Below are positions 16,319-55,191 of a DNA stretch of 64,000 nucleotides, one piece after another. Numbering within the stretch: position 1 is the stretch's first letter; each line of letters starts with the position of its first letter. A program made the position numbers and the translations under genes. This stretch comes from a virus. The DNA lies in the IMG/VR virus record IMGVR_UViG_3300044971_004534. The stretch is one strand, 5' to 3'. Under the pieces are notes generated by a model. That model saw nothing but the letters and a program-made list of their open reading frames with translations, made no database searches and was not told the DNA's origin.

Positions 16319-16675
16319 GTGGAATATATATATCACATAGTTATTCCAAAAAATCAAGCAACTAGAGTAAATGATTGCTTTAGTAAACTTTGTAAAACTA
16401 AATCTAAACCTTTTATTTTAAATTTAGCAGCAAAAAGTGTTTATAAAGCCACGCATGTGGGTGCTTTTGGAATTTCTGAAGAAGAACTAAAGATATTTGA
16501 AGTTGTTCTTCAACTTGATAGTCCCGGTGTTTTTTGGTGGAAAGTATCTTCAAAAGATAGTCGCTTGGATGACTGTAATGATGCAGATTGTTTTGTGTAT
16601 TTAGGCGAAAAACTAGAATACAAGCAATTGTTTAAAAAAGCAGGCTTCATCTATTTGAATCAAGAAAATGAGTAA
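16319..16675 (+). CDS. hypothetical protein (118 aa, GTG start); sits where a small terminase would be expected
   Basis: Overlaps the terL start by 8 nt. No DNA-binding or small-terminase motif recognised, so the call rests on position only. Confidence 0.5.
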   Translation: MEYIYHIVIPKNQATRVNDCFSKLCKTKSKPFILNLAAKSVYKATHVGAFGISEEELKIFEVVLQLDSPGVFWWKVSSKDSRLDDCNDADCFVYLGEKLEYKQLFKKAGFIYLNQENE

Positions 16676-18539
16676 AGCAGGAAGACCAAAGAAAAAATCT
16701 GATCTTTTTTTTGACCTTGAAGGTCTTAAGGAAGCAGTCAAAAATGTTCCAGTGACAGCATCTGATGCTGGTCACGTTCCTAGTATTATTGAATTTATAG
16801 AGTCTGACAAGTATCTTGGTCTTCCTCATAGAAAGCCTACTTCAATTGACCTGTACCCATTTCAGCGCATCATGCTAAAAGCGTTTTATGCTGGGAGTAT
16901 AGGTAATCAAAATATTGGTCTCTCAGAAGAAGAGCTTGCTTTATGTAAAGAAAATAATTTTGAAGATGAAGACACAAGTGATATTTTTATAAAAAAAGAC
17001 AATGGTATAACAAAAAGTGAATTAGTTCTTGTATGGGGGCGCAGAAGCGGCAAAGACTTTATAGTTTCAATACTTGCTTGTTACGAGGCAGCTAAGCTTT
17101 TAGAATCTCCTGAAGGTGATCCTTACAAGCTATATAATTTAGGGTCAGGTGCTCCATTTACTATTTTGACTGTTGCAAATAGCTCTGCTCAGGCTCAAGT
17201 TCTTTTTAATGAAATAAAAGATAAGATTATCAATAGTCCATATTTCGCAGACAAAATTGTTGCTTCAGGCATTCTTGCAGACCAAATACATCTTCTAACA
17301 CCAGCTGATAAGGTAAAGAACGTTGAGCTCGCTGCTCGAGGACTTCCAACAAGTCCTGGGTCTGTTATTATCAGATGCGGTCACAGCAATTCTGACTCTC
17401 TCGCTGGTATATCTTGCTATTGTTTGCTGCTTGACGAAATTGGTTTGTACAAACAAACTGCTGGCAGTAGCGGTGGTGAAAGTATTTATAGAACGCTTGC
17501 ACCTGCAACTGCAACATATGTTCGCAAAGAAAAAAACATAGATCCTTATGGCAATGAGAAGCTTCAAGATGTGTATGATGGCAAAATAATATGCATTAGT
17601 TCTCCACGCGGTAAAGAGGGTGTGTTCTATGAGTTATATAGAAAAAGCTCTTCTGTATCTCATCGTGTTATGTGTAAATTGCCAACTTGGAAAGTAAATC
17701 CAAATCAAACAGTAGAGCTTTTGCGTGAAAAATTTGCTAACATGACTGAAGAAGAGTTTATGATGGAGTTTGGCGCAGAATTTAGCGGCACTGCTGGTCA
17801 AACATTCTTTACAAGAGATATGGTTGAAAGATCTTTTGGTAGTAGTATAAAGCTTAGGGATCATGGAGAGGGAGGCTTTAGCTATTTCTGTCATTTAGAT
17901 CCAGCAACATCTTCTCACAATTATGCATTATGTGTTTGTCACCGAGAGATGTTTATTAATCCACAAACAAATAAAACAGATTTTAAAATTAAAGTGGATC
18001 ATTTAAAATATTGGCAACCTAAAGAGGGTAAGCCAATATTAACAGAAGAAGTTGATAATTATATTATTGCATTAAGTAAAAGGTTCAATTTTGAACTTGT
18101 TACATTTGATCAGTGGAACTCTCAGCACAGTATTGATCATTTGAAAAAACATAGTGTTCCAGCAAAAATGACAAGGTTTACAAAAAGATATAAAATTATT
18201 ATATATGATAATTTATATGATTTATGTTCAGCAGGTCGTTTAGAAATCCCAGATCACGAGTTGCTAAAAAATGAAATGCTGTATTTGCAGCGAAGATATA
18301 CTCCTACTGGATATAGAGTTTTTGCTAAAAAAGACGGTCTAGTAAAGACTGATGACCTTGTGGATGCATTGGCTGGAGCTGCATACGCGTGTATGCATGA
18401 TAGTGTTGTAAGATTGCCTCAAGGAAGATTGGTTAGTTTATCAGTAAATCCAGTAGGAGAAGGAGTGGTTTTTAGGAGTATGTCGGGTGTGCCTATAGGT
18501 CATTCTCTTCAGCAACAAAAATGGAGCAAAAGGTTCTAA
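16668..18539 (+). CDS. terL: terminase large subunit
   Basis: Walker A-like VWGRRSGKDF, Walker B CYCLLLDEIGLY, and upstream Q-motif-like LYPFQ. The C-terminal RNase H-like nuclease part has FCHLDPATSSHNYALCVCH and KTDDLVDALAGAAY. At 623 aa the size is typical. Confidence 0.9.
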   Translation: MSKAGRPKKKSDLFFDLEGLKEAVKNVPVTASDAGHVPSIIEFIESDKYLGLPHRKPTSIDLYPFQRIMLKAFYAGSIGNQNIGLSEEELALCKENNFEDEDTSDIFIKKDNGITKSELVLVWGRRSGKDFIVSILACYEAAKLLESPEGDPYKLYNLGSGAPFTILTVANSSAQAQVLFNEIKDKIINSPYFADKIVASGILADQIHLLTPADKVKNVELAARGLPTSPGSVIIRCGHSNSDSLAGISCYCLLLDEIGLYKQTAGSSGGESIYRTLAPATATYVRKEKNIDPYGNEKLQDVYDGKIICISSPRGKEGVFYELYRKSSSVSHRVMCKLPTWKVNPNQTVELLREKFANMTEEEFMMEFGAEFSGTAGQTFFTRDMVERSFGSSIKLRDHGEGGFSYFCHLDPATSSHNYALCVCHREMFINPQTNKTDFKIKVDHLKYWQPKEGKPILTEEVDNYIIALSKRFNFELVTFDQWNSQHSIDHLKKHSVPAKMTRFTKRYKIIIYDNLYDLCSAGRLEIPDHELLKNEMLYLQRRYTPTGYRVFAKKDGLVKTDDLVDALAGAAYACMHDSVVRLPQGRLVSLSVNPVGEGVVFRSMSGVPIGHSLQQQKWSKRF

Positions 18540-26456: not shown

Positions 26457-28739
26457 ATGGCAAAATCAAACGGTAAAGAACAGGAAATAAACAAGACTGC
26501 CTCCAATGAAGTTTTTGATGGACGCAAGTACGCTAACTCTGCAGCTGTATCTTTGCCTTTGACTAAAGCAGCTCAATATGTTGGAGGCAGCGCTAGTACC
26601 ATATTTACGCAGCCTATGTTTTTTAGTCCGCTGCATACTCCACAAAATTGGCAGATTGCCAGTAAGAGAAAAGAAGTTTACCAGTGGGCTAGATTTTATT
26701 ATGAAAACGAGCCAAAAGCAGCAGCAGGCATAGATTTTTATGCTGGCTTTCCAATGAATGGCTTTAATTTGGAATGCAAAGATAAAAAAGTACTAGCTTA
26801 TTTTGAGCATTTAACAGAAAAACTTAATCTTGAATATTGGTTAAGAAAAATTAGTCATGAGTATTTTTTACTCGGAGACGTTTTTGTATTTACTGAAATA
26901 GAGTGTCCTGTCTGTCGCGGTCTGGGCCATCTTCCCAACGGCAACATATGTAATCACCCAGATGGTACAATTAAGCGTTTGTTGATTTTAAATCCAGATT
27001 TTATTGAGGTGCAGAACACGCAGTTAGCAGATGAACCAACAGTTGCTCTTATTCCAGATGATGATTTAAAAAGAGTGGTCGCTCAGAAAAAACCCAAAAA
27101 TGTTTATGACCGCATTCCTGATTCGATCAAAGAGTACGTTTTATCAGGTAGGCCAATTCCTCTTAGTCCAAGATGCATAAGTCATATTAGACATAAGGGT
27201 TCTCCATACGGAACTTATGGAGAAAGTCTGTTGAGAAGATTGTTTACCATTATATCTTATAAAACAAAATTAATGACAGCTAACTGGATTATGGCTGAAA
27301 GGCATATATTGCCTGTTAGAGTTGTTAAGGTTGGAAACGCTGAACGTCCAGCTTCTGAATTTGATATTGCAGATGTTCAGGGTCAGCTTGCTGCAGTTGC
27401 AAACGATCCTAATTTAACTATTGTGACTCATCATGCATTTGAAATGGACTTTATTGGTGCTACTGGCAAAATTCATGACATATCCAATCAGTTAGAAATG
27501 ATTGGTAAAGAAATGCTTGATGGATTGATGTTGCCGCAAACTCTTCTTAATGGAGAAATGGCTGCATATAGTGCAGCAGCAGTTGGTGTTGAAACTTTGA
27601 TACGTAGACTTGAAACTTGGCGTATGGAACTTTCGTCTTGGGTTGAGAAAAATATATTTTTACCAGTCGCTCAGATGCAAGGTTTTGTTGACACTCAAAA
27701 GAGTAAGTTGGTAGGGGACACTGTATGGTTAACTCCCAAAATTAAGTGGAATGATTTGCGGTTACGAGACAATAGTCAGTATCTGCAAAGCTTAATGCAG
27801 TTGCATGATAAGGGCCTCATATCTACTCAAAAGCTTTTAACTGAATTTAACATTGATTTTGATCAAGAAGTTAATAGGCTTCGTGAAGAGCAGATTACTG
27901 CAGGTAAGGGCGGTCAGGTTCTTGGCGGTGCTGGAGATGCTGGCGGCGGCATGGGTGGTTTAGATTTAGGTCTTGGCGGACCTCCCGGTGGTGGCGGTGG
28001 GTTAGATCTTGGTCTTGGCGGCGGTGGCATGCCTCCTGGCCTTGCAGGGCCAGGTCCTGGCGGCGCACCTGGAGCAGCACCACCACCTGGTGGCGGAGCT
28101 CCTCCAGCTCCACCTATGGGGGCCATGGCTAGCGACGAAAATGATGACATGACAAAGGTTGCACAGCTTTCTCTAATGAATGATCCCAGTCAGCAATCTG
28201 TAGATCCATCCATGAGAGTCTACAAGAGAGGCAAGCAGCCAAAACAAAAAAAATCTGATGAACCAACAGTTGAAAATAAGCAAATATTTTTGACTAAACC
28301 AGAGCAGAAGCTTTTCAGCATCGTTAAGTCTCTTAATGTTCCATTGAGATTATTTGCTCAATATGAATTTAAGGTTCCAGGTGAGCAAAACGCATATCTA
28401 CTAGATTTTGCCTTCCCGGATATCATGCTAAACTTTGAAGCAGATGGAGATTTTTGGCATTCTGATGCCAGTGCCGTTGAGAGAGATAAGCAGAGAGACA
28501 TGAAGTTGGCGAGCATGGGGTGGCGTGTGGTAAGAATTAAAGAAAGTGCATTAAATACTAATGTTGAATTAGTTACTCAAATTATTGTGAATAATATTAA
28601 AGACACTATTGCTCAGCGTAAAGCTTTAATGGCCAAGCGTGCTAGTGTTAATGCAGAAGATAGTATTTACTATGAAGATGGAGATGAATTAAAGATTTCT
28701 TACCAAAATTTGATTTATGATAACAGTGACAATTCATAA
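26457..28739 (+). CDS. portal protein with C-terminal Gly/Pro linker and DUF559/Vsr-like endonuclease domain
   Basis: 760 aa. Sits directly upstream of the protease/scaffold, decoration and capsid genes. The N-terminal ~480 aa are portal-like in size and pattern (YQWARFYYENEPKAAAGIDFYAGFPMNGF...). The C-terminus YLLDFAFPDIMLNFEADGDFWHSDASAVERDKQRDMKLASMGWRVVRIKE matches the DUF559 layout. Confidence 0.75.
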   Translation: MAKSNGKEQEINKTASNEVFDGRKYANSAAVSLPLTKAAQYVGGSASTIFTQPMFFSPLHTPQNWQIASKRKEVYQWARFYYENEPKAAAGIDFYAGFPMNGFNLECKDKKVLAYFEHLTEKLNLEYWLRKISHEYFLLGDVFVFTEIECPVCRGLGHLPNGNICNHPDGTIKRLLILNPDFIEVQNTQLADEPTVALIPDDDLKRVVAQKKPKNVYDRIPDSIKEYVLSGRPIPLSPRCISHIRHKGSPYGTYGESLLRRLFTIISYKTKLMTANWIMAERHILPVRVVKVGNAERPASEFDIADVQGQLAAVANDPNLTIVTHHAFEMDFIGATGKIHDISNQLEMIGKEMLDGLMLPQTLLNGEMAAYSAAAVGVETLIRRLETWRMELSSWVEKNIFLPVAQMQGFVDTQKSKLVGDTVWLTPKIKWNDLRLRDNSQYLQSLMQLHDKGLISTQKLLTEFNIDFDQEVNRLREEQITAGKGGQVLGGAGDAGGGMGGLDLGLGGPPGGGGGLDLGLGGGGMPPGLAGPGPGGAPGAAPPPGGGAPPAPPMGAMASDENDDMTKVAQLSLMNDPSQQSVDPSMRVYKRGKQPKQKKSDEPTVENKQIFLTKPEQKLFSIVKSLNVPLRLFAQYEFKVPGEQNAYLLDFAFPDIMLNFEADGDFWHSDASAVERDKQRDMKLASMGWRVVRIKESALNTNVELVTQIIVNNIKDTIAQRKALMAKRASVNAEDSIYYEDGDELKISYQNLIYDNSDNS

Positions 28740-35591: not shown

Positions 35592-35655
35592 TTTTATATT
35601 GGTATTCTTGTTGAGATCAATATAACAAAATAAAACTTTGAAAGGATATACAAAC

Positions 35656-36528
35656 ATGTCACTAAATAAAGATGGTTTGACCTATGATGAAAAGGAGGCA
35701 GTGATTGCCCAAGCCCTCGCAACCGAGGAAGGCCGCACTGCTCTCGCACAGGCCATGGTGGAGCCAATCCGCCGTTCACTAGAGTATCAGGCTGTAGGCC
35801 GCAAGCTTCTCATGGTAGATGAGCTCCCACAAGGCGCTCTTCCCCGCTATGAGCGCGATGTTGCCTCTACAGCAACTGTTATTGCCCGTCAGGGTGCAGT
35901 TCCCGATCAGATTCAGGAAGGCGAGGAAGTCCTCGTTCCAACTTTTGAGATCGCTGCTCACCCAACAATTCGTTTGAGCGAGATCAAGGCACGTCGCTTC
36001 TATATCGTTGACCGTGCTCAGATCAAGGCAAAGGAAGCCATTCAGAAGGAAGAAGATCGCAATATCTTCAGCGCTCTGATTGCTGCTGCTGATGCTCGCA
36101 ATGATCAAGTCGTTGGTAACACCGGTGACTTGACCACTGATTCGCTCAACGTTGCATACCGTTTGATTGAGACTCACGATCTTGTCGCAAGCAAGGTTGT
36201 TGCTCACCCCCTTCAGTATGCTCGTTTCCGCGTGTTTGGTAAGACCTTCTATGATGAGGCTACCACTCGTGAAATCCTCACCACCGGTCTCTATGGTCAC
36301 CTCTGGACTGCTGACATCCACGTCAGCTCCCAGCTTGACGCTCAGACCGTATTGGTGTGCGCTTCTCCCGACACTGTCGGTGCCTTCCCCATCCGCCAGG
36401 ACATCACAGTCCTTCCAGCAGATGATCCAAAGAAGCTCCGTCTTGGTTGGGTAATCTACGAAGAAGTCGGCATCGTTGTTATGAACGATTACGCCATCTC
36501 GAAGATCGAAGTTTACCGTGCATCCTAA
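35656..36528 (+). CDS. major capsid protein (HK97-fold candidate), 290 aa
   Basis: It occupies the last position of the head module. AAGGA lies 9 nt upstream of ATG 35656 (the ORF track starts at TTG 35638). GC and C-ending codon use are markedly elevated. The strongest terminator in the window follows it. The sequence pattern is capsid/encapsulin-like (RKLLMVDELPQGALPRYERD..., VGAFPIRQDITVLPADD). Confidence 0.75.
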   Translation: MSLNKDGLTYDEKEAVIAQALATEEGRTALAQAMVEPIRRSLEYQAVGRKLLMVDELPQGALPRYERDVASTATVIARQGAVPDQIQEGEEVLVPTFEIAAHPTIRLSEIKARRFYIVDRAQIKAKEAIQKEEDRNIFSALIAAADARNDQVVGNTGDLTTDSLNVAYRLIETHDLVASKVVAHPLQYARFRVFGKTFYDEATTREILTTGLYGHLWTADIHVSSQLDAQTVLVCASPDTVGAFPIRQDITVLPADDPKKLRLGWVIYEEVGIVVMNDYAISKIEVYRAS

Positions 36529-44782: not shown

Positions 44783-45064
44783 ATGTTTACAAAAGATAAT
44801 ATAAGAAATGCGTTAATGGATAAAAATGTAACATTTTTTGTGTTACCTACTAAAGCCATAAAAGATCATATTATTAAATGTGATGATCCAGACATTAATG
44901 GATTGTCGCAAGAAGTTAAGAGTATATTTTTGGAAGGGAAGGGGCTGACGGTAGAAAATAAAATGGTTGCAGATTATATGGATGGAATGCTTGACTCAAA
45001 AAATCACAAAATAATATCTTTATGTGAAATAAGAGTTTTGCAAGACAGAGTACCTGTAATTTAA
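44783..45064 (+). CDS. hypothetical protein (93 aa from ATG 44783)
   Basis: The ORF-track start 44705 lies inside the upstream gene. ATG 44783 sits 1 nt after the upstream stop. Confidence 0.6.
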   Translation: MFTKDNIRNALMDKNVTFFVLPTKAIKDHIIKCDDPDINGLSQEVKSIFLEGKGLTVENKMVADYMDGMLDSKNHKIISLCEIRVLQDRVPVI

Positions 45065-45075
45065 AAAAAATAGTT

Positions 45076-45489: not shown

Positions 45490-45493
45490 ATTT

Positions 45494-46273: not shown

Positions 46274-48865
46274 ATGAGTACTCCATTTAATTTAATAAAA
46301 TTAGCTCAAAGTATAAGCGAATTAGAGGCAGAGGCTAGGCAGATAATTGCTCGCCTCGGCGTCAAAGCTGCCTCTAAGGACAAACGCTTACAGGAGATAA
46401 TTCTGCTGCTACAAACAAAAGAAAGTCCTCGTGCTGAGGCTATTGCTGACAGTTTAACCAGTGATCTATATTCTGAGGAGCTTGTGCCAGAGCAGCGCTC
46501 TGTAGAACAAGTAGCTCAAGAAAGAGGTTTAAGAGAAAAGCATTGGAGCGTCGTTCTGCTTGGAGAATTGAACAAGGTGGCTGGTTCATTAAAGGGAAAA
46601 ATTATTAGTGATATCAAGAGCATAAATACCGAGCCATATAAAAACTGTGCAAACGCAAGCGCTCTTCGATGGGTTCAATATAATGCTGGTCGTAAGGGTC
46701 ATGGTAGTATCTATGCTAACGCTATTGACACATTGGCAAATGATACTAATCCAGTCTTTGAGATGGATGATTTTTTTGGATATCATCCGCCAATTGTTGC
46801 TACTTATTACGCTTTGCATCCAGAAATACTCAAGTCTATCTCTCAATCTATGTATGACAGAATGCTGTCTTATGGCATTTCTGATGTGTCTGAAGGGGTA
46901 AGTAGCGTCCAGCGAGTTGATTTATTAAAATATCGTGAAAATATTTTGCAAAACTGGGGTGCCTTAAGCTCTAACAAGGGTGGAATCCCCCTCCATTGGA
47001 CATCATATCGAGATGAATCAAATAGCTTTTTTACATTTGGACAAATATTAATTAAAGACTTTACTCATAGATTGTCTCAGCAAGATCCTGAAGCAATGTG
47101 TATTTTATTTGAAAAGCTCTACAGGCACGTTACAAGGCTGGTCAGCGTGGAGATGAGTAAGGCTAAAGGCGACAGGGGTGCAGGCGAAGAAGGACAAGAT
47201 ATCGTAGAATTGGGTAAATCAGATTTTTCTTCAGCACAATCTGAACTAGTTGGCAATGAACAAAGACGCCAAGCTATGGAAGCAAATTTGCAATATGCTT
47301 TAGACGAGTCAGTTTTTTCTAATGGTACTAAATCCTTTGTCAAGCAAATAGAATTTTTGGAAACATATAAGTCTTACTTTAGTAGTCTTTTGTCAGTTAT
47401 GGATAGTAGCAGAGATCCTGAATCATTTAAGATTATCTTAAGTTTATCAAATGATGTAGAAAGTGCCATTTCTAATTTTGTTTATCAATACGTAGACTCG
47501 CTTACGAATGCGCATAAATATTCTTTAGAGTATAGAGAAAATAAAGGTATAACAATTTTAGATTTATCATTTGACAAAATGCTTAAATCTAATGCTCGCA
47601 AGGATGGTAAGCACTTTATTGTAAAATTTTCTGGCTCTAATGGTTATGTAAATATAAATGCAAAATTTATCGATAATGGTAAAAAGATCAAAAAAGAACT
47701 TGTTGATATTTCTAGTGGTAGACTTTTAGGAATATTTAAAGAGTTGTCTCTAATTGAATTTGATGGATTAGAAATAAAAATTTCACCTAAACAGATGTTG
47801 TCATTAACCAAGCAGGGAGATGACAATGAAAATGATTTGTTAAATTCTCTTGGTGATGTTTTTGAGATGTATGGCGAGCTAAATACGCCAGCAGAAAATA
47901 AAAAATTATCTCAGGCAGTATTTCAGAAGCCTTTTTATAGCGTAAAGCCAGAGCTGATACAACATTATCAGCAGCAAAATGCAATACCAATGTTGGCTTC
48001 AATATGTAGGGGCTTTTTTTATGAACATCCAGAGTTAATAGACAAAGTAATTGTTGGTATTAAAAATACTGGTAGCAAATCTCTAAGTGCACAAGAAAAA
48101 ATCATAGATTGGAAAAAATCATTTCCCAATCAGTATAATGCATTTGAAAGTGTATATGTACTTATATCAAATCATTTAATTAACAAGATTAGATTATTAA
48201 AAGAAAAAGTTAATTTAACTGATGAGGCTATAGAATGTTTTTATACAATTGGAAATTCAGCTTTAATTTCTGAAATTGAAAAATTATCTGTCTCTTTAAA
48301 AACAGAATCCGATCCAGATAAAAGGAAGGCAATATCTGATCTTATTGCTTCTCATAAAGAAGCTCAAAAAGTTTTTGATAATTTATTTATAGGATTAAAT
48401 CAGTCAGGTTTTAAAAGTGAAGGAAGCGTAGACGTTGATTCTAAGTGGCTTACCAGTGCAATCGGGAGTCTTTGGAAAGACGGAGAAATATCTAATTTAA
48501 TTGATAGTATAGAATATAAAGAAAAAATTATTCCTGAAATTACTTCATATATAAATAACCTAGACGATCTTCAAGTTATAGATTTAGCTGCTACAGCATA
48601 TCGTGGTCTAACATATAACATGACTAAGAAAGAATGCATGGACATTCTTCCAAAAATGAGGGGTATTTTAAGTAAATACGGATTAGAGTCTGGTGACGAA
48701 AAAGTTGCAGCAATCTTTTCTTTGTTGTCTTCTTCGTGTCCCATAGAGGCAAAACCAAAAACTGCAAATTCGCATTTCTCCTACAAATACGCAAATGTCG
48801 GTAATCATATTTATGAAATAAAAGATTGGATTAAAGCATTTGGAAGAAAAGCATATACAGAATAA
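46274..48865 (+). CDS. large hypothetical protein (863 aa)
   Basis: Long uninterrupted ORF after a 75-nt gap. Composition suggests a mainly helical protein. No catalytic motif recognised. Confidence 0.8.
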   Translation: MSTPFNLIKLAQSISELEAEARQIIARLGVKAASKDKRLQEIILLLQTKESPRAEAIADSLTSDLYSEELVPEQRSVEQVAQERGLREKHWSVVLLGELNKVAGSLKGKIISDIKSINTEPYKNCANASALRWVQYNAGRKGHGSIYANAIDTLANDTNPVFEMDDFFGYHPPIVATYYALHPEILKSISQSMYDRMLSYGISDVSEGVSSVQRVDLLKYRENILQNWGALSSNKGGIPLHWTSYRDESNSFFTFGQILIKDFTHRLSQQDPEAMCILFEKLYRHVTRLVSVEMSKAKGDRGAGEEGQDIVELGKSDFSSAQSELVGNEQRRQAMEANLQYALDESVFSNGTKSFVKQIEFLETYKSYFSSLLSVMDSSRDPESFKIILSLSNDVESAISNFVYQYVDSLTNAHKYSLEYRENKGITILDLSFDKMLKSNARKDGKHFIVKFSGSNGYVNINAKFIDNGKKIKKELVDISSGRLLGIFKELSLIEFDGLEIKISPKQMLSLTKQGDDNENDLLNSLGDVFEMYGELNTPAENKKLSQAVFQKPFYSVKPELIQHYQQQNAIPMLASICRGFFYEHPELIDKVIVGIKNTGSKSLSAQEKIIDWKKSFPNQYNAFESVYVLISNHLINKIRLLKEKVNLTDEAIECFYTIGNSALISEIEKLSVSLKTESDPDKRKAISDLIASHKEAQKVFDNLFIGLNQSGFKSEGSVDVDSKWLTSAIGSLWKDGEISNLIDSIEYKEKIIPEITSYINNLDDLQVIDLAATAYRGLTYNMTKKECMDILPKMRGILSKYGLESGDEKVAAIFSLLSSSCPIEAKPKTANSHFSYKYANVGNHIYEIKDWIKAFGRKAYTE

Positions 48866-49046
48866 TCATAAAATATCTTGCGTTTGTGCTTTATGTGGTA
48901 AACAAACTGACGCAAATATATCGCTTGAATTTAATTTTTTACAACGAAAAATATATTGGTATTGTGGTGAATGTCATAAAATGAATGACATAGATTTTCA
49001 AGCCTTAAAAGAAATACAACCACTTCCTAGAATGAGGTTAAGCTAA
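48840..49046 (+). CDS. small zinc-ribbon protein (68 aa, TTG start)
   Basis: CVCALC-x24-CGEC pattern. Overlaps the upstream ORF by 26 nt. TAATG junction with the next gene. Confidence 0.4.
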   Translation: MEEKHIQNNHKISCVCALCGKQTDANISLEFNFLQRKIYWYCGECHKMNDIDFQALKEIQPLPRMRLS

Positions 49047-49555
49047 TGTATGCAATAGTAAATACTTCTGGGAGACATTTGAGTTTGCAAGATTTGAGAG
49101 TAATGCTTTCTCCAAGAGAAAGAATAGATTTAGATTCTGTGTGTGACCGTAGAGAAATAGAAGCAAGTACTCATTTAAAGCATGCGCTGAAAAAAGGCTA
49201 TGTAAAGGTTGTTGTCAAAGACAAGGAGGGTCATGATTTTAGTGTTCCTCAAACTCAGTCTGGAATTACTAAAGATGATTTAAATAAAATAAAATCAGAG
49301 ATAGCCAGCATTATACAGGATGCGATTAAGTCCATGCCATCTTCTACAGTTGTGGTTCAAGGTGGTGTTGTTGATAAAAACGCCGATCATGTTGATCACG
49401 GCATTGAAATGTCAGACGAAGTTCTTGATCACATTCATAAAAAAGCAGTTGATCGTTTAATGAACAATACTGAAAAAACAGTAGATGTTAAGCCGGTACA
49501 TGGTTCTAATTTAAATATCAAAAAGAATCTTGATGAGTTAGAAGATTTACTATAA
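49046..49555 (+). CDS. hypothetical protein (169 aa) sharing an N-terminal module with ORFs 39483 and 19691
   Basis: See the finding on the shared N-terminal module. Confidence 0.7.
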   Translation: MYAIVNTSGRHLSLQDLRVMLSPRERIDLDSVCDRREIEASTHLKHALKKGYVKVVVKDKEGHDFSVPQTQSGITKDDLNKIKSEIASIIQDAIKSMPSSTVVVQGGVVDKNADHVDHGIEMSDEVLDHIHKKAVDRLMNNTEKTVDVKPVHGSNLNIKKNLDELEDLL

Positions 49556-49568
49556 ACAGGAGATACGC

Positions 49569-50624
49569 ATGTCAATATCAGCAGGTTACGATGTCGGTAC
49601 TATGTTCTGTCAAATGGCCAAATCTGGCAAGTCAGGTGATGCTGTTTTTTCTACGATAAGGAATGCGTTTGTTGAAATACCAGAGTCGGAAGATGTGGAA
49701 GAAATACTTTCAAGAAACGGATGGCAATGGGTTAGAGACGGTAAAAGTGTTTTTGTTATAGGAGAAGATAGCGTTCAAGTTGCTAAGCTATTTCCTGGGA
49801 AGGTAGAAATAAGGCGTCCTCTACAAGACGGAGTGTTGAACAAAAACGAAGAAAAGAAGAATATTGTTCTTGCTTCTATCATTGAAAGTCAGCTTGGTAA
49901 AGCTCCAGATGAAGAATCTATTGTTACTACCTGCATTTCTTCTCCTTGTGTTGACAGTAGTGGAGACAGCACATTCCATGCTGCTAGATTAAAAAGCATG
50001 TTTTCCAGACTGGGCTGGAACGTTAAGGTAATTGAGGAAGCTCTCGCTGTTGTATTAAGCGAGCGTCCATGTGTGATAGAAGACGATGGTACAGAAATCC
50101 CATACTCTGGCATAGGCATGAGCTTTGGCGCAGGTCGAGCTAATTGCATGCTTGCTTTTAAGGGCATGCCAATACTTGGCATGAGTGTATCTCGTTCTGG
50201 TGATTGGATAGATCGCATGGTCAGTGAACAGACTGGCGTGCCAATCGCTCAAGTAATGGAGGCAAAAGAAAGACGACTTGATTTTAATAAAATCGACATG
50301 GATGATGATGTGCTATTTGCCTTAGATGCCTACTACGATGCAATGCTTAAGCACGTTTTTTCTTTATTTGCCAAGAAGTTCAAGGAAGTCAAGGCAGAAT
50401 TTAGCAAACCTCTTGATGTTGTGGTGGCTGGTGGAACTAGTATGCCATCTGGTTTTGAAAAGAAAGTAGAATCAGCTATACGTTCATATGACCTACCTTT
50501 TAAGGTAAATTGTGTCAGAAAGAGTAAAGATCCAAGGAATGCGGTTGTTGCTGGCCTGTTGACTCAGGCTGAAATAGTAAGAAGAAAGCTAGAGAAAGGT
50601 CAAATATCAAAGGATAGCATTTAA
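49569..50624 (+). CDS. actin-fold ATPase (ParM/MreB/Hsp70-NBD superfamily)
   Basis: Motifs in order: phosphate-1 ISAGYDVGTMF, connect VIEEALAVVLSE, phosphate-2 GIGMSFGAGRANCM, adenosine DVVVAGGTSMPSGF. At 351 aa it is the size of a nucleotide-binding domain. Confidence 0.7.
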   Translation: MSISAGYDVGTMFCQMAKSGKSGDAVFSTIRNAFVEIPESEDVEEILSRNGWQWVRDGKSVFVIGEDSVQVAKLFPGKVEIRRPLQDGVLNKNEEKKNIVLASIIESQLGKAPDEESIVTTCISSPCVDSSGDSTFHAARLKSMFSRLGWNVKVIEEALAVVLSERPCVIEDDGTEIPYSGIGMSFGAGRANCMLAFKGMPILGMSVSRSGDWIDRMVSEQTGVPIAQVMEAKERRLDFNKIDMDDDVLFALDAYYDAMLKHVFSLFAKKFKEVKAEFSKPLDVVVAGGTSMPSGFEKKVESAIRSYDLPFKVNCVRKSKDPRNAVVAGLLTQAEIVRRKLEKGQISKDSI

Positions 50625-51349
50625 TGGGATACGCCACACCTCAATTAGTACAAAGAGTATTGACTCAGTCTCTTACTTCAGCTACCCAGCCTACTTTAAC
50701 TGGTAAGGGTCAGCTTATGAATTTTGGTGCCACTTTAGATAAGAATTTAATAAGTGATGATATTATGAATCAGCATATTAATATTGCTGATACATTCATT
50801 AACGGAGTTCTTAGTGTTCTTTACAAGACGCCACTTAAAGAAATAGCTGATATTGAATGCAAATTGGCCGTTGATATAGATGTATATGGTTCAGAGGTTA
50901 TACTTGTTTCTCCACAAGCAAATGTTTTTGTGCCTGGAGATGTAATAGTTATTACTGATGGTACTTATGATGAAAAAAGAACGGTATCTGAAATTTCTAG
51001 TGACAACATACTGAAATTTACTGACAATATTACTGGTATGTTTTCTGCAGATATTACAAGAGTCTTGCGCGTAAGATTTCCTGATCCCATTCCAAATACT
51101 AGTGCACGTCTGGCTGCAGCGAGTATTTATGATCGATATTTTTCTTCACAGTCAACTGTTCAAAATTCAGAATTTGGAAAACTATTAAGAAATCAAGTCA
51201 AAATTGATTTAAATAATATAATGAATGGAAGGACCGTTCTGCATGGTCAGCATAGAATAGGCGACAGATTTGTCAATTCTCACCTTAAGGATAGATATGG
51301 ATTGAGAAATATTGAGAGTGATGGATCAAGAGACATTGGAGACTTATAA
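50624..51349 (+). CDS. head-tail connector-like protein (tentative DUF1320/gp36-like N-terminus)
   Basis: TAATG junction. MGYATPQLVQRVL...DDIMNQHINIADTFINGVLSVLYKTPL resembles the ...Y.lPl pattern of Mu gp36-type proteins. Tentative. Confidence 0.4.
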   Translation: MGYATPQLVQRVLTQSLTSATQPTLTGKGQLMNFGATLDKNLISDDIMNQHINIADTFINGVLSVLYKTPLKEIADIECKLAVDIDVYGSEVILVSPQANVFVPGDVIVITDGTYDEKRTVSEISSDNILKFTDNITGMFSADITRVLRVRFPDPIPNTSARLAAASIYDRYFSSQSTVQNSEFGKLLRNQVKIDLNNIMNGRTVLHGQHRIGDRFVNSHLKDRYGLRNIESDGSRDIGDL

Positions 51350-51597
51350 TGAGTAATGAAAATCTAAAATCTCAGCTTATGGCATTGCAAAACCAGCTTA
51401 GCAAGATTTCTGCGCAATCTGGGTCTACATCAATGTCGCCTCCAGTATTCTCAAGTAGAGAGGAAGCCGCTAAGTCCAAGCCATTTGTAGATGATTCTAA
51501 AATAGAAATGAACGAAGCTGCTTTGACTGAAAAGGTGAGTGCTATAGTTATGGATGCAGTAGAAAAAGAGTTGTCAAAAATTTTTAGCAAGTACTGA
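51349..51597 (+). CDS. hypothetical protein (82 aa)
   Basis: TAATG junction with the upstream gene. Confidence 0.6.
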   Translation: MSNENLKSQLMALQNQLSKISAQSGSTSMSPPVFSSREEAAKSKPFVDDSKIEMNEAALTEKVSAIVMDAVEKELSKIFSKY

Positions 51598-51599
51598 TT

Positions 51600-52502
51600 A
51601 TGGAAGAAGTATTAGACAGTTTAAGAAAAATTATCAACAGATGGGTAAACACAGAATCAGTGATTACCGAAGATGTCATCGTTAATGATGTTCTATTAAA
51701 AGTTAATAATTCTCTTAGATTTAGAGAGGGTGATGAAGTTTTAATTGTTGACAATAGAGATGAATTTGAGCATCCATTATATGTGAAGAGCATTCCTGAT
51801 GAGACTACTGTGGAACTTAATACTCCTGTGCGTTTTAATTGGAACGTTGCAAATAGTGCGAAGCTTAAAAAATCAGTAGCTGGCAGATTTGTGCAAGGTG
51901 TATATCTAGGAGATCCTAATACTATACCAAGATTTCCTGCTATCACAGTCGTTGGTGAGAATCAAAATTCAAACTGGACAACTTTAGAAAGCACTACGGA
52001 AACTTATGATGTTAGCATAAATTGCTACATAGAAGACAGCACTTTAGAAGATGGATATCGCGCTTTAATGAGGCTGACAAAATTAATTGAATTTGGTTTA
52101 AAAAGAAATATGTTTCCTTTAGTTGGTGAGAGATCTCACACTAGTCTTACAGCTGCAGCAGAACCAAATGATTTATATTTAAAGGTAGAAAGCACAGATG
52201 GTATGGTTGCTGAGCAGTTAATACTTTTAGAAAGTAACTTTGCTGCAGAGCAAGTCATTATCAAAAGCATTATAGATGAAACAACTATAGAATTAGTTCA
52301 GGGTCCATACTTCTCATATCCAATGGTGAACGATCCAAGAGCAATTATTGTAACAAGATTTTTGTATAAATGTTGGCCAAAAAGTATTAATTATGGATTT
52401 GTACACAAAGACACATTATTAAAGGCTAGCAAGATTAGTTGGAGTGGAGAAGAAATTCAGCAACACGGCTCAATTGGATGGTGGGATACTCCGAGAAATT
52501 AA
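51600..52502 (+). CDS. hypothetical neck/tail-completion-region protein (300 aa)
   Basis: Call rests on position. NTIPRFPAITVVGENQ...YDVSINCYIED weakly resembles tail-completion proteins. Confidence 0.6.
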   Translation: MEEVLDSLRKIINRWVNTESVITEDVIVNDVLLKVNNSLRFREGDEVLIVDNRDEFEHPLYVKSIPDETTVELNTPVRFNWNVANSAKLKKSVAGRFVQGVYLGDPNTIPRFPAITVVGENQNSNWTTLESTTETYDVSINCYIEDSTLEDGYRALMRLTKLIEFGLKRNMFPLVGERSHTSLTAAAEPNDLYLKVESTDGMVAEQLILLESNFAAEQVIIKSIIDETTIELVQGPYFSYPMVNDPRAIIVTRFLYKCWPKSINYGFVHKDTLLKASKISWSGEEIQQHGSIGWWDTPRN

Positions 52503-52503
52503 T

Positions 52504-53649
52504 ATGAAAATATTAATTATTGGCCCCTCTCCTTACATGAAGCACGATCCAGGATTGATGGTAAACGATTTTATTAAACTTGCTAGTAAAGATCGTCAAG
52601 TTTTTGGTTGTTTCTATCATCACGATTTTTCTAAGTTGCCTCTAGAAAACACTAATGAGTTTCATTATGGCTCTGGATCAGTAGATGCAAAATGGATAGA
52701 CAATTCTCAAGAAAATGCAGCAGTAATTGCTGCTTATGATGCAATCATGGAATGGGAAATCGATTGCATAGTTAGTTTTGGTAGTTATATAGAAGCAGAT
52801 TTTATTAGAGCAGCTAAAGAAACTTCTGGTAGAGAGATTGCCTGGCATCATGTGCTTACCATGGCTAATCATGTTCACGATGTACGATACGCTGAAACTT
52901 TTAATAATATAGATTTTATATATAGCTTTTCTGAATCCCAATTAGAGAATATAGTATCAACGCTTGGAGTTTTAAAAGATAAACTGTGCGTTTTAGAAAA
53001 ACCATGTAAAGTAACCAGTTCAAATTCTGAAAAGACTGTTGATATTTTATGTGGTGGATGGAATACAGAGTCGTATAATTTTAAGTCTATTTTTGAATCT
53101 GTCGCTGGGTTAAGCGCATCTTTCAAGTGTTTAACAAATTACTATGAATATGGAGATTATGATCTTGAAGCAATGAAGAACTGCTATTTTAATAATCAAG
53201 AAATATATCCGTCTGATTTTGCTAGCCTATTTGAAAAACCCGCATATGAGCAATGGGATCATTTCATTGAAAATTGTAAAATTTTTATTGACATGAGTAT
53301 GAGTCAAGGGTCCTGTAGTACTGCAAAAACTGCTCACGCAAGTGGTGCGTTTTGTTTTCTTATAGACACTCCAAGACACAGAGAGTTGTCTCGTTATTTT
53401 AGTAATATTAGATTGATAAAATCTTCTGTTTTTTTTAGTTCCTCTGGCATCAAAATGTATGTTCCAGATCATTTAGATTTGCATATGCAATTAGTTGAGT
53501 ATCTTTCTAATAGCTCTAATTTGTCTAGAAAATACGATATTTACGATAATTATGACAAAAAAGAAGGGAAGGATTTAGAATATTTATTAAATAACATAAT
53601 ACAAGCAGATTCTGCAGGAAGGTGTATAGGGATAGAATCAATAACATAA
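52504..53649 (+). CDS. glycosyltransferase-like protein (possible GT-B fold), 381 aa
   Basis: ATG 52504 gives MKILIIGPSPY..., a typical GT-B N-terminus. No clear E-x7-E motif. Weak assignment. Confidence 0.3.
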   Translation: MKILIIGPSPYMKHDPGLMVNDFIKLASKDRQVFGCFYHHDFSKLPLENTNEFHYGSGSVDAKWIDNSQENAAVIAAYDAIMEWEIDCIVSFGSYIEADFIRAAKETSGREIAWHHVLTMANHVHDVRYAETFNNIDFIYSFSESQLENIVSTLGVLKDKLCVLEKPCKVTSSNSEKTVDILCGGWNTESYNFKSIFESVAGLSASFKCLTNYYEYGDYDLEAMKNCYFNNQEIYPSDFASLFEKPAYEQWDHFIENCKIFIDMSMSQGSCSTAKTAHASGAFCFLIDTPRHRELSRYFSNIRLIKSSVFFSSSGIKMYVPDHLDLHMQLVEYLSNSSNLSRKYDIYDNYDKKEGKDLEYLLNNIIQADSAGRCIGIESIT

Positions 53650-54081: not shown

Positions 54082-55191
54082 ATGCCAGTAGAAGGACAAC
54101 CATCATTTAGCGTTCCTCCGCCACTAGGACTAGCAGATCCAACTGCACGTCCAGCTTATGCTGGATATTCTGGCTTTGTTACTTATGAAGCCAATCTTGG
54201 CGGTGCTTTAAATAAATACCTTATTCGTGCAGATAGTTGCACATTAAAAGGCACTCAAAACATAGATACTATTAGAGATATTGACGGTTCTATTGACTCT
54301 ACAAGATATGCTCTTAAGCCATTTGAGCTTAATGGAGACATTAGCTTTAAGTTAGATTCAGCTCCAGACAGTGTTGGGTATCAGGCATTTTCTCGTATTT
54401 ATAGAGACACGGTTGAGCGTAGCTCAGATGGTCGTCTTAAGATAAGAGAAGTTCCTGGTTGCAGAAATATGCTTGTTCGTTATAATGGCGAGGTTTCATA
54501 TAGATACTTAGATCTAGTTCCCAGTAGAATGACCATTACCTGCAACGCTGGAGATGCCCTTAACGTTCAGGTGTCTTTCATGGGAAGAGGCCGTGAGGGT
54601 CCATTTGATGGCACTAGCGCCATTATGGGAGATGGGTTGGGTTCTTCCGTTGGAGGAAAGGTTAACGTTGCTCCTGTCCGTGTAGTAACTTATAATGACG
54701 TTACGATTGACATTGAGCAGTCTCCAATCGCTACCGGAGTCGTTGTTAATACTCCTCCAAACATTACAAGACTCCCCCTTGTGAAAAGTTTTTCTGTTAC
54801 AATAGACAATCAGGTTGAGGCAGTCCATACATTGAGTGGAACCTTGGCTGCTTATGATCTGGTTGCCAAGAAGCGTCAGATCACTGGTAGAATAGATTTC
54901 TTGGGCAGAAATAGGGATATAGCAGACTATGCTATGTATAACGAAATTGGTCAGACTTCTCGCGCCAATTTACTATTCAATGTAAGATTTGGTAACGTCA
55001 CCAAGACATTATTTAAACTTCGTGGAGTGGTGTTTAAGCTTGAGTCTATGGATTTAACAAATGATGTACTGAATTCATCTATGGACTTTATGGCTCTTGG
55101 AGATCAGGCCTTCAATTACGAGGCAATATCAGCTTTAGAGACTCCAGGCACGAACGCTAACGGCGCTCAGCACCCATATCCATTCATTTGA
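54082..55191 (+). CDS. major tail (tube) protein candidate
   Basis: SD GAGGAG upstream. Sits immediately upstream of the frameshifting chaperone pair and the tape measure. The pattern ADSCTLKGTQNIDTIRDIDGS..RYALKPFELNGDISFKLD is tail-tube-like. Confidence 0.6.
   Translation: MPVEGQPSFSVPPPLGLADPTARPAYAGYSGFVTYEANLGGALNKYLIRADSCTLKGTQNIDTIRDIDGSIDSTRYALKPFELNGDISFKLDSAPDSVGYQAFSRIYRDTVERSSDGRLKIREVPGCRNMLVRYNGEVSYRYLDLVPSRMTITCNAGDALNVQVSFMGRGREGPFDGTSAIMGDGLGSSVGGKVNVAPVRVVTYNDVTIDIEQSPIATGVVVNTPPNITRLPLVKSFSVTIDNQVEAVHTLSGTLAAYDLVAKKRQITGRIDFLGRNRDIADYAMYNEIGQTSRANLLFNVRFGNVTKTLFKLRGVVFKLESMDLTNDVLNSSMDFMALGDQAFNYEAISALETPGTNANGAQHPYPFI

What the first reader, a model, noticed from the sequence alone, without database searches (positions are those of the whole stretch)
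49569..50624. Actin-fold ATPase encoded among head-tail joining genes
Seen: the 351-aa ORF carries the actin/Hsp70/sugar-kinase signatures in canonical order:
- phosphate-1: ISAGYDVGTMF (D-x-G-T);
- connect: VIEEALAVVLSE (compare the E-P-x-A-A of MreB/Hsp70);
- phosphate-2: GIGMSFGAGRANCM;
- adenosine: DVVVAGGTSMPSGF.

Its size equals a bare nucleotide-binding domain, with no Hsp70 substrate-binding domain.

Established: bacterial actin homologues (ParM/Alp families) segregate plasmids and some plasmid-like prophages. Phage cytoskeletal elements are best known from tubulin PhuZ. Actin-like genes in phages are uncommon.

Inference: it may be a filament former for genome or virion positioning, a plasmid-prophage segregation motor, or an Hsp70-like assembly chaperone. 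Its location among late genes is unusual for a partition system, and I saw no ParR-like adaptor or centromere repeats next to it.
Basis: partly seen in the sequence, partly recalled or inferred. Interest (0 to 1): 0.65.

Follow-up and report, generated by a model that had tools for sequence, protein, structure and literature searches.

The report
Huge-phage actin inside virion-assembly operon
The 351-aa ORF is a genuine actin-fold protein of the recently named Volactin family, and it is a highly conserved core gene of a ~400-kb "huge" phage, wedged between neck and tail genes, so it is probably an undescribed phage-encoded actin cytoskeleton.

Summary
Observation confirmed. ORF 49569-50624 (+) carries the four quoted motifs at the stated places. 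It matches Pfam PF25216 Volactin end to end (3e-56, 191.7 bits against a 35-bit cutoff). Its AlphaFold model (pLDDT 90) is a four-subdomain actin fold closest to MreB, MamK, BeeR and actin.

It is not ParM, MreB, MamK or Hsp70 by their family models. The canonical phosphate-2 Asp is a Ser. That is the signature of the family as sampled (141 of 150 representatives, and the archaeal and bacterial members aligned), not decay.

The window is the morphogenesis region of a ~401-kb phage (TerL, portal, protease, capsid, tail tube). The gene is translationally coupled to a Mu-gp36-type adaptor-like gene. The order p68-p169-actin-p241-p300-tube is kept in the 39 related loci compared (33 complete), and it is the most conserved gene in that block (55-88% identity).

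A second huge-phage clade (2,822 proteins, contigs up to 673 kb) and cellular relatives exist. Inteins sit in its nucleotide loops.

No centromere repeats or recognisable ParR were found. I found no publication describing it.

Best reading: a filament-forming NTPase that organises late virion assembly or positioning. The function is inferred, not shown.

The parts
49569..50624 (+). Volactin-family actin-fold NTPase gene (351 aa)
   Evidence: ORF. PF25216 at 3e-56. AF2 pLDDT 90.4. Foldseek to MreB/MamK/BeeR/actin. 30.7-33.4% identity over 94-95% of its length to haloarchaeal homologs.
49558..49562 (+). Shine-Dalgarno AGGAG, 6-nt spacer to the ATG
   Evidence: Read directly from the sequence.
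49590..49601 (+). Phosphate-1 loop D8-V-G10-T11
   Evidence: Invariant in both phage clades. D in 143 of 143 aligned representatives.
50034..50039 (+). Connect-1 E156-E157 (catalytic Glu position, as in MreB 'IEEP')
   Evidence: E157 invariant in A2/A3. E in 140 of 147 representatives. The equivalence to the MreB catalytic Glu is by motif alignment, which is inference.
50121..50144 (+). Phosphate-2 loop S185-F-G187-A-G189-R-A-N192 (Ser replaces the canonical Asp); intein insertion hot-spot in relatives
   Evidence: S in 141 of 150, G187 in 150 of 151, N192 in 145 representatives. Shared with archaeal and bacterial members. In P0241 the intein lies between the S185 and F186 equivalents.
50199..50213 (+). 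G211-D212-W-I-D215 motif (MreB/Hsp70-type G-D-x-x-D)
   Evidence: Invariant. About 133 of 137 aligned representatives.
50427..50441 (+). Adenosine loop A287-G288-G289-T290-S291
   Evidence: G288 and G289 in 135 of 135 aligned representatives.
50064..50099 (+). Lineage-specific insert (res ~166-177, RPCVIEDDGTEIPY) of which 8 residues are absent from clade 2, archaeal and bacterial members
   Evidence: Alignments.
48840..49046 (+). p68, small CxxC...CxxC zinc-ribbon protein, conserved upstream partner; TAATG overlap with p169
   Evidence: ORF. Found in 37 of 39 related loci. Junction read.
49046..49555 (+). p169, conserved upstream neighbour with an N-terminal ~60-aa domain, a variable helical/disordered middle and a conserved C-terminal IHKK..DELEDLL helix; candidate adaptor or scaffold
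   Evidence: Alignment A5. Found in 37 of 39 loci. AF2 pLDDT 62, isolated helices. No PDB or Pfam identity.
50624..51349 (+). p241, Mu gp36/DUF1320-type head-tail adaptor-like protein; start overlaps the actin stop (TAATG)
   Evidence: Pfam 1.3e-4. phrog_195 at 2.4e-4. 13 of 23 orthologs hit Mu_Gp36. Junction read.
51349..51597 (+). p82, small ORF of the operon
   Evidence: Positional equivalents of 84-93 aa in relatives.
51600..52502 (+). p300, conserved, weak tail-completion/terminator-like
   Evidence: Tail_completion_gp17 at 0.021. Of 23 orthologs, 3 hit gp17, 1 hits a tail terminator and 14 hit K1-lyase_Rider.
52444..53649 (+). Glycosyltransferase-like gene inside the tail block
   Evidence: Orthologs carry PF00534.
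54082..55191 (+). Tail tube protein
   Evidence: PF18906 at 5.1e-12.
46274..48865 (+). p863, large variable protein opening the operon (860-1234 aa in relatives, poorly conserved)
35638..36528 (+). Major capsid protein (context: shows that the actin does not occupy the capsid role)
   Evidence: phrog_2522 at 1.1e-63.
26457..28739 (+). Portal protein (context)
   Evidence: phrog_16240 at 2.1e-44.
16668..18539 (+). Terminase large subunit (context)
   Evidence: phrog_2 at 1.3e-28.

Best explanation
The gene encodes a Volactin-family bacterial/archaeal-type actin: a four-subdomain actin fold with an intact, family-typical nucleotide site. It is a vertically inherited core gene of a lineage of huge (about 170 to over 500 kb) tailed phages.

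It is made late, from the same tightly packed operon as the neck and tail proteins, and is translationally coupled to the adaptor-like gene.

The most likely mechanism is nucleotide-dependent polymerisation into dynamic filaments that spatially organise virion morphogenesis. Examples would be capturing, positioning or moving very large capsids and long tails so that heads and tails can join in a crowded cytoplasm. The conserved upstream p169 (C-terminal amphipathic acidic helix) and/or the p68 zinc ribbon may act as the filament adaptor.

Shown: fold, family, motif conservation, phage origin, conserved synteny, core-gene status. Inferred: polymerisation, timing, cargo and partner.
For: Family and fold:
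- PF25216 at 3e-56.
- Confident AF2 model.
- All top-50 PDB structural neighbours are actin-family proteins (MreB/Mbl, MamK, BeeR filament, actin), not Hsp70 or sugar kinases.
- The founding member, volactin, forms dynamic filaments in vivo (PMC10869688).

Nucleotide site under selection:
- D8/G10/T11, E157, S185-x-G-x-G-x-x-N, G-D-x-x-D and G-G-T are invariant across phage clades that are only ~29% identical.
- They are near-universal in 150 representatives and shared with archaeal and bacterial members.
- Inteins are inserted exactly in the phosphate-2 loop and next to G-D-x-x-D.

Phage and morphogenesis context:
- TerL, portal, protease, MCP and tube all lie on the + strand.
- TAATG overlaps with the neighbours and a strong SD.
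- The order p68-p169-actin-p241-p300-tube is kept in the 39 loci compared, 33 of them carrying all six genes, and in a lineage at 47% identity.

Core-gene status:
- Actin is 55-88% identical, against tube 24-85% (24-44% outside the closest relative L009), p241 31-78% and p169 25-58% in the same loci.
- Only the MCP is more conserved (68-96%).

Restriction to phages:
- Only 1 close hit in 185,579 species genomes, and that is a 7.6-kb contig carrying the phage block.
- The identical protein occurs on contigs up to 401 kb.
Against: No experiment exists on any phage member, and no cultured phage in INPHARED carries the gene.

Polymerisation is extrapolated from one haloarchaeal relative at roughly 31-33% identity.

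The phosphate-2 Asp that is canonical in actin/MreB/ParM/Hsp70 is a Ser, so hydrolysis kinetics are unknown.

p169 has no recognisable fold, and its model is poor (pLDDT 62), so its partner role is speculative.

The neck/tail linkage could not be extended to the second phage clade. Its neighbours show no homology to p169 or p241, and a lineage at ~33% identity has a different context.

Gene position in a late operon is only indirect evidence for a role in assembly.
Confidence: 0.45

Rival explanations
1. Genome positioning or segregation motor (ParM/AlpC/salactin-like). Filaments would push or anchor the huge phage chromosome, for example to position replication or packaging sites, or to maintain the genome as an episome in a carrier state.
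For: Characterised phage/prophage and plasmid actins do this (AlpAC of CGP3, PMC4446434). AlpA and AlpC are co-transcribed in one alpAC operon, a precedent for an operon-encoded adaptor such as p169.

Some cellular Volactin-family members are fused to a ParB-type HTH DNA-binding domain (P0311, P0292).

Salactin, another haloarchaeal actin, aids DNA partitioning (cited in PMC10869688).

Haloarchaeal homologs lie on 360-990-kb megaplasmids.
Against: There are no iterons or centromere-like repeats in or around the operon, and no intergenic space to hold them.

There is no Pfam ParM/StbA hit at E<=0.1.

p68 and p169 show no recognisable DNA-binding fold.

The gene is embedded in late structural genes, whereas alpAC are early genes.

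The phage proteins lack the ParB-HTH extension.
Confidence: 0.2
2. Non-polymerising actin-fold ATPase acting as an assembly chaperone for the neck or tail. This would be functionally like the Hsp70 homolog that closteroviruses use for virion 'tail' assembly.
For: The position is immediately upstream of, and coupled to, adaptor-like and tail-completion-like genes.

The best BFVD structural matches are viral Hsp70 homologs.

The non-canonical phosphate-2 Ser could signal a slow, switch-like ATPase.
Against: The BFVD result probably reflects library content. In the PDB search, filament-forming actins outrank Hsp70 nucleotide-binding domains.

There is no substrate-binding domain and no Pfam HSP70 hit.

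The Ser is shared with the archaeal and bacterial family members aligned here, in a family whose founder polymerises; volactin's own sequence was not examined.

The high conservation (55-88%) is more typical of polymer-forming proteins than of dedicated phage chaperones.
Confidence: 0.15
3. Host-cell remodelling factor. A phage actin would alter host shape, size or division, as volactin and MreB act on cell shape, to accommodate very large virions or delay division until lysis.
For: The family founder controls the rod-to-disk transition (PMC10869688).

The Halogeometricum homolog lies near RdfA and an SMC-like shape gene.

The family is restricted to very large phage genomes.
Against: Host-takeover genes are usually early and not embedded in structural operons. 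No membrane-targeting helix or RodZ-like partner was identified, though this was not tested specifically. Synteny with neck and tail genes is conserved over long evolutionary distance.
Confidence: 0.12
4. Structural component of the virion itself, for example a neck- or tail-associated appendage built from an actin-fold protein.
For: The gene sits inside the structural operon. Its conservation is second only to the MCP. It has a strong SD.
Against: I know of no precedent for an actin-fold virion protein in tailed phages (own knowledge). The conserved nucleotide-hydrolysis site and the intein targeting argue for an enzyme or polymer with turnover. The same family exists in cells without virions.
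Confidence: 0.05

Closest known systems
Volactin (VolA, HVO_2015) of Haloferax volcanii; Pfam PF25216
   Same: Same Pfam family, well above threshold. Same length class. Haloarchaeal family members are 31-33% identical over ~95% of the length and share every signature motif, including the phosphate-2 Ser. Volactin forms dynamic, ParM-like unstable filaments in vivo (PMC10869688).
   Different: The window protein is encoded by a huge tailed phage, not a cell. It sits in a late neck/tail operon rather than near shape genes. Its lineage has an 8-residue insert after connect-1, 'IEE' instead of 'INE', and a C-terminal extension. The cell-shape function cannot be transferred. HVO_2015 itself was not available for direct comparison.
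PhuZ tubulin spindle of nucleus-forming jumbo phages (Chimalliviridae)
   Same: A phage-encoded cytoskeletal polymer in very large phages that positions replication and assembly structures and traffics capsids (PMC7950403, PMC8314001). It is the nearest functional analogue of the proposed role.
   Different: PhuZ has the tubulin/FtsZ GTPase fold, not actin, and is unrelated in sequence. PhuZ is not in the neck/tail operon. No chimallin or PhuZ was seen in this window; the rest of the genome was not examined.
Phage, prophage and plasmid actins: AlpC/AlpA (CGP3 prophage), ParM/ParR/parC, Alp7A, Alp12 (own knowledge for the last three)
   Same: Actin-fold NTPases encoded by mobile elements. AlpC and its adaptor AlpA are co-transcribed, a precedent for an operon-encoded adaptor such as p169.
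   Different: They are different subfamilies (no ParM/StbA Pfam hit). Those systems have a DNA-binding adaptor plus a centromere and are early or maintenance genes. Here there are no repeats, no recognisable DNA-binding partner, and a late structural context.
MreB, MamK and BeeR (bacterial actin filaments)
   Same: Best structural neighbours (Foldseek E about 1e-13, TM 0.53-0.70). Weak sequence echoes in the subdomain IA/IB region.
   Different: Sequence identity is 13-18%. Scores are far below the family cutoffs: MreB 16.9 against 293 bits, MamK 25.5 against 400 bits. Phosphate-2 is S-x-G-x-G instead of D-x-G-x-G.
Closterovirus Hsp70h and giant-virus Hsp70 or actin-related proteins
   Same: Viral actin/Hsp70-superfamily proteins. 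Hsp70h takes part in virion tail assembly (own knowledge). They are the top BFVD structural matches.
   Different: Those are eukaryotic-virus proteins, mostly with a C-terminal substrate-binding domain. TM normalised to the target is only 0.26-0.38. There is no sequence relationship.

Membership tests
Volactin family (Pfam PF25216) | Full-length match to the family HMM above the gathering score (35 bits) | tested here: met
   191.7 bits, E=3e-56, residues 5-334 against profile positions 3-321 of 321.
Volactin family (Pfam PF25216) | Shares signature motifs with cellular (archaeal and bacterial) members: DxGT, RRPxxxG, conserved His137, (I/N)E..A, S-F-G-A-G-x-x-N, GGDWID, GGTS..GF | tested here: met
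   Alignment with Halogeometricum, Haloarcula and bacterial L126 proteins. Residue frequencies in 150 representatives.
Volactin family (Pfam PF25216) | Forms dynamic filaments in vivo and influences the rod-to-disk cell-shape transition | not testable with these tools
   Known only for HVO_2015 (PMC10869688).
Actin/ASKHA superfamily fold | Two RNase-H-like domains with subdomains IA/IB/IIA/IIB around a nucleotide cleft | tested here: met
   AF2 pLDDT 90.4, pTM 0.90. Foldseek probability 1.00 to MreB, MamK, BeeR and actin.
Actin/ASKHA superfamily fold | Phosphate-1 D-x-G-(T/S), connect-1 acidic residue, adenosine G-G | tested here: met
   D8-V-G10-T11, E157 and G288-G289 are invariant.
Actin/ASKHA superfamily fold | Canonical phosphate-2 Asp (D-x-G-x-G) | tested here: not met
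   The position is Ser185: S in 141 of 150 representatives, D in 2. It is a family-wide substitution, so it lowers 'canonical actin ATPase site', not 'actin fold'.
ParM/Alp partition systems (ParMRC-type) | Membership of the ParM/StbA-type actin subfamilies | tested here: not met
   No ParM/StbA family among the Pfam hits at E<=0.1. No ParM among the top 50 PDB structural matches.
ParM/Alp partition systems (ParMRC-type) | Adjacent DNA-binding adaptor (ParR/AlpA/AlfB-like) | tested here: inconclusive
   Conserved neighbours p68 (zinc ribbon) and p169 have no recognisable DNA-binding domain. The p169 model is low-confidence.
ParM/Alp partition systems (ParMRC-type) | Centromere-like repeat array next to the operon | tested here: not met
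   No such arrays in 44-56 kb. Window tandem repeats lie within coding genes elsewhere. Gene junctions overlap.
MreB | Score above the curated family cutoffs | tested here: not met
   Pfam MreB_Mbl 18 bits against 27. NCBIfam PRK13927 16.9 against 293.
MamK | Score above the NCBIfam cutoff | tested here: not met
   25.5 bits against 400. Profile against the PDB MamK sequence gives E=0.12.
Hsp70/DnaK | Hsp70 nucleotide-binding domain signature plus C-terminal substrate-binding domain | tested here: not met
   No PF00012 hit. The protein ends at residue 351 with only a helix after subdomain IA.
Phage cytoskeleton of PhuZ type | Tubulin/FtsZ GTPase fold | tested here: not met
   The fold is actin-like. 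The comparison is functional only.

The most novel reading that the evidence does not exclude
Huge phages outside the nucleus-forming group possess their own actin cytoskeleton. It is an ancient, intein-targeted core morphogenesis gene that polymerises late in infection. Through the co-encoded p169/p68 it would capture giant capsids and/or tails to drive head-tail joining or virion positioning. That would make it an actin counterpart of the PhuZ tubulin spindle, present in at least two lineages of the largest known phages (up to 673 kb).
Probability: 0.3. Interest if true: 0.85.

Novelty: new variant of a known kind. Interest (0 to 1): 0.68.

Why it matters
Phage-encoded cytoskeletons are so far known mainly from PhuZ tubulin in nucleus-forming jumbo phages and from a few ParM/Alp-type partition actins.

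This is instead an actin of the Volactin family that is a conserved core gene of uncultured huge phages. It has hundreds to thousands of cluster representatives at 90% identity, on contigs from 170 to over 670 kb. It is embedded in the virion-assembly operon and is second only to the capsid protein in conservation.

None of the papers I could search describes it, including Al-Shayeb 2020, the jumbo-phage reviews of 2020, 2021 and 2026, and all 17 papers that mention volactin.

If it polymerises, it offers a concrete handle on how very large virions are assembled in a crowded cytoplasm where such particles barely diffuse.

It also shows that the Volactin family, described for haloarchaeal cell shape, spans archaea, bacteria (including ParB-HTH and BY-kinase fusions) and phages. 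All of them share an unusual Ser-type phosphate-2 site that is worth biochemical study.

Tried and rejected
1. Hypothesis that the ORF occupies the capsid-protein slot (large protein, scaffold-like protein, X, adaptor). Rejected: the true portal, protease and MCP lie 13-23 kb upstream.

2. Sequence search against the PDB with the single protein and with a profile gave only insignificant MamK/MreB echoes. PHROGs has no family for it.

3. The 'MCP' tblastn hits just upstream of the actin in L008, L020 and L023 are only a 32-aa N-terminal motif in a 74-aa mini-ORF next to an inserted HNH endonuclease, not a capsid gene.

4. The Jug-phage preprint (360-402 kb genomes; 'actin-like' occurs only in a reference title) has no statement about this gene in the sections read or in the two held supplements. 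I do not equate the window with Jug phages.

5. Centromere or iteron search: nothing. The promoter and terminator scans gave no interpretable sites: promoter-like sites were at the shuffle expectation and terminator-like sites were weak.

6. p169 identity: the profile against the PDB gave only a designed coiled coil. The model built with database homologs is low-confidence (pLDDT 62), so I ran no further search on it.

7. Neighbours of clade-2 actins (LR756511, LR745208) show no homology to p169 or p241 by phmmer or hhalign. Their Pfam and PHROG annotation is nearly empty.

8. Names for out-clade relatives are almost all unnamed metagenomic proteins.

9. HVO_2015 itself could not be retrieved. 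Haloarchaeal megaplasmid paralogs served as archaeal comparators.
Full report
THE OBSERVATION. The ORF is real: 49569-50624, + strand, 351 aa, ATG start. An AGGAG Shine-Dalgarno precedes it by 6 nt. The resemblance is not chance. The protein matches Pfam PF25216 'Volactin' over its whole length (E=3e-56, 191.7 bits, gathering score 35). It has only sub-threshold echoes of Actin, MreB_Mbl and DDR. NCBIfam gives far-sub-threshold MamK and MreB hits (25.5 against 400 bits, 16.9 against 293 bits). PHROGs has no family for it, and sequence searches of the PDB find nothing significant.

STRUCTURE. An AlphaFold2 model built on 32 homologs is confident (pLDDT 90.4, pTM 0.90). Foldseek places it with MreB/Mbl, MamK, the BeeR filament and eukaryotic or Plasmodium actin (probability 1.00, E about 1e-13, TM 0.53-0.70). 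All top-50 PDB matches are actin-family proteins; neither ParM nor Hsp70 nucleotide-binding domains appear among them. Against predicted viral structures, the best matches are closterovirus and giant-virus Hsp70 homologs. I attribute that to what the library contains.

THE NUCLEOTIDE SITE. This is not decay.
- Across two phage clades that are only ~29% identical, D8, G10, T11, E157, E165, S185, G187, G189, N192, G211, D212, D215, G288, G289, G295 and F296 are invariant.
- In the 150 best representatives of an exhaustive search, Ser occupies that position in 141 and Asp in 2. The other site residues are near-universal.
- Haloarchaeal and bacterial family members share the same motifs.
- Several relatives carry a LAGLIDADG intein inserted exactly between the S185 and F186 equivalents (GIGIS|C...HN|CGAGRINC). 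Others carry one around residues 203-209, a few residues before G-D-x-x-D.

Inteins characteristically home into functionally critical motifs. That is established knowledge and serves here as supporting inference.

WHAT THE WINDOW IS. Almost all genes are on the + strand, and the window is a phage morphogenesis region.
- TerL 16668-18539.
- Portal 26457-28739, a 1923-aa protein with an N-terminal head-maturation protease domain at 29220-34991, and the major capsid protein 35638-36528 (phrog_2522, 1e-63).
- Auxiliary genes: a CCA-adding enzyme, glycosyltransferases, an S8 protease and PhoH.
- The block p863-p68-p169-ACTIN-p241-p82-p300-GT-p128-tail tube (PF18906, 5e-12), followed by 865-aa and 1558-aa proteins.

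The identical actin protein is found on contigs up to 401,021 bp, and the identical p169 on a 406,100-bp contig. So this is a 'huge phage'.

I first suspected that the ORF sat in the capsid slot. Finding the true MCP upstream rejects that. The junctions p68/p169 and actin/p241 are TAATG overlaps, so the actin is translationally coupled within one operon with neck and tail genes.

The downstream p241 is adaptor-like. It hits Pfam Mu_Gp36 at 1.3e-4 and phrog_195 'head-tail adaptor' at 2.4e-4. Of 23 orthologs, 13 independently hit Mu_Gp36, which is the only family hit, and the top but insignificant profile match in the PDB is a DUF1320 protein. p300 has only scattered tail-completion and terminator echoes.

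CONSERVATION AND DISTRIBUTION. The first homolog search returned 565 cluster representatives at the 90% identity level, typically ~60% identical and many on 170-465-kb contigs. IMG/VR holds 35 loci on contigs up to 548 kb. Among 185,579 cellular species genomes, the clade-specific patterns found one hit: a 7.6-kb contig binned in an Asgard MAG that carries the phage block.

In the 39 related loci compared, the order p68-p169-actin-p241-p300-(GT)-p128-tube is kept; 33 carry all six genes, and the rest lack a detectable p68 or p169 or end before the later genes. The actin is the most conserved gene of the block: 55-88% identity, against tube 24-85% (24-44% outside the closest relative L009), p241 31-78%, p300 34-76% and p169 25-58%. 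On the same viral contigs only the MCP is more conserved (68-96%). Synteny persists in a lineage at 47% identity.

THE WIDER FAMILY.
- Two deposited huge-phage genomes (LR756511.1, 595 kb; LR745208.1, 485 kb) encode homologs at 28-29% identity that match Volactin even better (3e-67 and 2e-68).
- LR756511's protein heads a second clade of 2,822 cluster representatives on contigs up to 673 kb.
- The neighbours of these clade-2 genes are not homologous to p169 or p241, so the neck/tail linkage is shown only for the window's lineage.
- The exhaustive search counts 1,339 representatives at 50% identity (422 at E<=1e-30).
- These include intein-bearing forms, a tandem double-Volactin, Planctomycetota proteins fused to Wzz/BY-kinase domains, and ParB-HTH::Volactin fusions next to a stand-alone paralog in a bacterial chromosome.
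- Haloarchaeal megaplasmids encode homologs at 31-33% identity over ~95% of the length. One lies about 5 kb from an SMC-related protein and RdfA, which carry the names of the cell-shape factors identified in the same H. volcanii study as volactin (PMC10869688).

PARTITION-SYSTEM TEST. No iteron or centromere-like arrays occur in or near the operon. The conserved upstream p169 has a ~60-aa N-terminal domain, a variable middle, and a conserved C-terminal helix ending DELE(G/D)LL. Its AF2 model is low-confidence (pLDDT 62) and shows isolated helices separated by disordered linkers. It matches nothing in the PDB, Pfam, PHROGs or NCBIfam. It could be a filament adaptor: AlpA is co-transcribed with AlpC in the alpAC operon, and, from my own knowledge, ParR and other partners bind actins through terminal helices. 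That is inference only.

MECHANISM. Shown:
- an actin fold of the Volactin family;
- a conserved, family-typical nucleotide site;
- a phage core gene inside a late morphogenesis operon.

Inferred: nucleotide-dependent polymerisation, by analogy with volactin's dynamic filaments and with the filament-forming structural neighbours, and a role in organising assembly or positioning of very large virion parts. I give this 0.45.

Rivals:
- genome positioning or segregation, 0.20;
- assembly chaperone, 0.15;
- host-shape remodelling, 0.12;
- virion component, 0.05.

NOVELTY. Phage and prophage actins are known (AlpC, PMC4446434; ParM/Alp-type from my own knowledge), and the Pfam family exists. I found no description of Volactin-type actins in huge phages. 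The only paper containing both 'volactin' and 'phage' is a Haloferax volcanii motility and cell-shape study. Al-Shayeb 2020 mentions only PhuZ tubulin. Jumbo-phage reviews of 2020 and 2021 name only cellular actins such as MreB or do not discuss phage actins, and the 2026 review does not contain the word. I rate it a new variant of a known kind, with interest 0.68.

Noticed in passing
relatives P0241, P0242, P0246, P0245, P0265 and others (not in the window): Many Volactin-family genes, in the window's clade and in others, are interrupted by inteins (Hint, LAGLIDADG and intein-splicing domains). One site is exactly in the phosphate-2 loop and a second is near residues 203-209. The window copy is intein-free.
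   Followed up: partly
L020 6524-7993 (also L023, L008): Between p169 and the actin gene, some relatives carry an inserted 304-aa HNH/zinc-ribbon endonuclease plus a 74-aa mini-ORF that copies the N-terminus of the major capsid protein (aa 14-45, 56% identity). This looks like a homing-endonuclease footprint.
   Followed up: partly
window 26457-28739: The portal protein (phrog_16240) has an extra C-terminal region of about 135 aa that matches HNH/homing endonucleases (phrog_559, 13076, 3339). It could be a fusion, an intein-like insertion or a read-through.
   Followed up: no
window 29220-34991: A 1923-aa ORF whose N-terminus (aa ~47-193) is a head-maturation protease domain. Its GC content is 42-48%, against ~35% in the flanks. 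It may be a giant protease-scaffold or internal-protein fusion.
   Followed up: no
window 5597-15468: A cluster of fibre-like genes with coding tandem repeats (72-nt and 54-nt periods in the 1963-aa ORF) and Gly-rich GGTGGC-type repeats. GC skew peaks at 0.31 at 12-14 kb. Laminin_G_3 and Gly_rich_2 domains are present.
   Followed up: no
window 36616-46198 and 52444-53649: The morphogenesis region is interspersed with non-structural genes: a CCA-adding tRNA nucleotidyltransferase, two glycosyltransferases (one between tail-completion-like and tube genes, conserved in relatives), a subtilisin S8 protease and PhoH. p336 (43771-44781) has no annotation but is the second most conserved protein of the block (43-77% identity).
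   Followed up: partly
window 38188-39435 (-): The only sizeable minus-strand gene in the window. Its C-terminal half matches virion structural protein families (phrog_24074, phrog_8510).
   Followed up: no
L008 (JBECUL010000084.1, 'Ca. Asgardarchaeum abyssi' MAG, 7.6 kb): The only close hit in 185,579 cellular genomes carries the phage block p68-p169-actin-p241-p300-tube. It is most likely a mis-binned huge-phage fragment rather than an archaeal gene.
   Followed up: partly
L126 6860-10676 (bacterial chromosome contig, 247 kb): A stand-alone Volactin paralog is followed by an 891-aa ParB-HTH::Volactin fusion in a cellular context (McsB/McsA-like genes, OMP decarboxylase, RND and T2SS genes). 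Planctomycetota also have a Volactin::Wzz::BY-kinase fusion (P0357). These suggest DNA- and envelope-linked roles for bacterial Volactins.
   Followed up: partly
L131 (Halogeometricum borinquense pHBOR01, 240431-241618): The haloarchaeal Volactin homolog is annotated 'cell division protein FtsA'. It lies about 5 kb from an archaea-specific SMC-related protein and rod-determining factor RdfA, and it has a long Ser/Thr-rich C-terminal tail.
   Followed up: no
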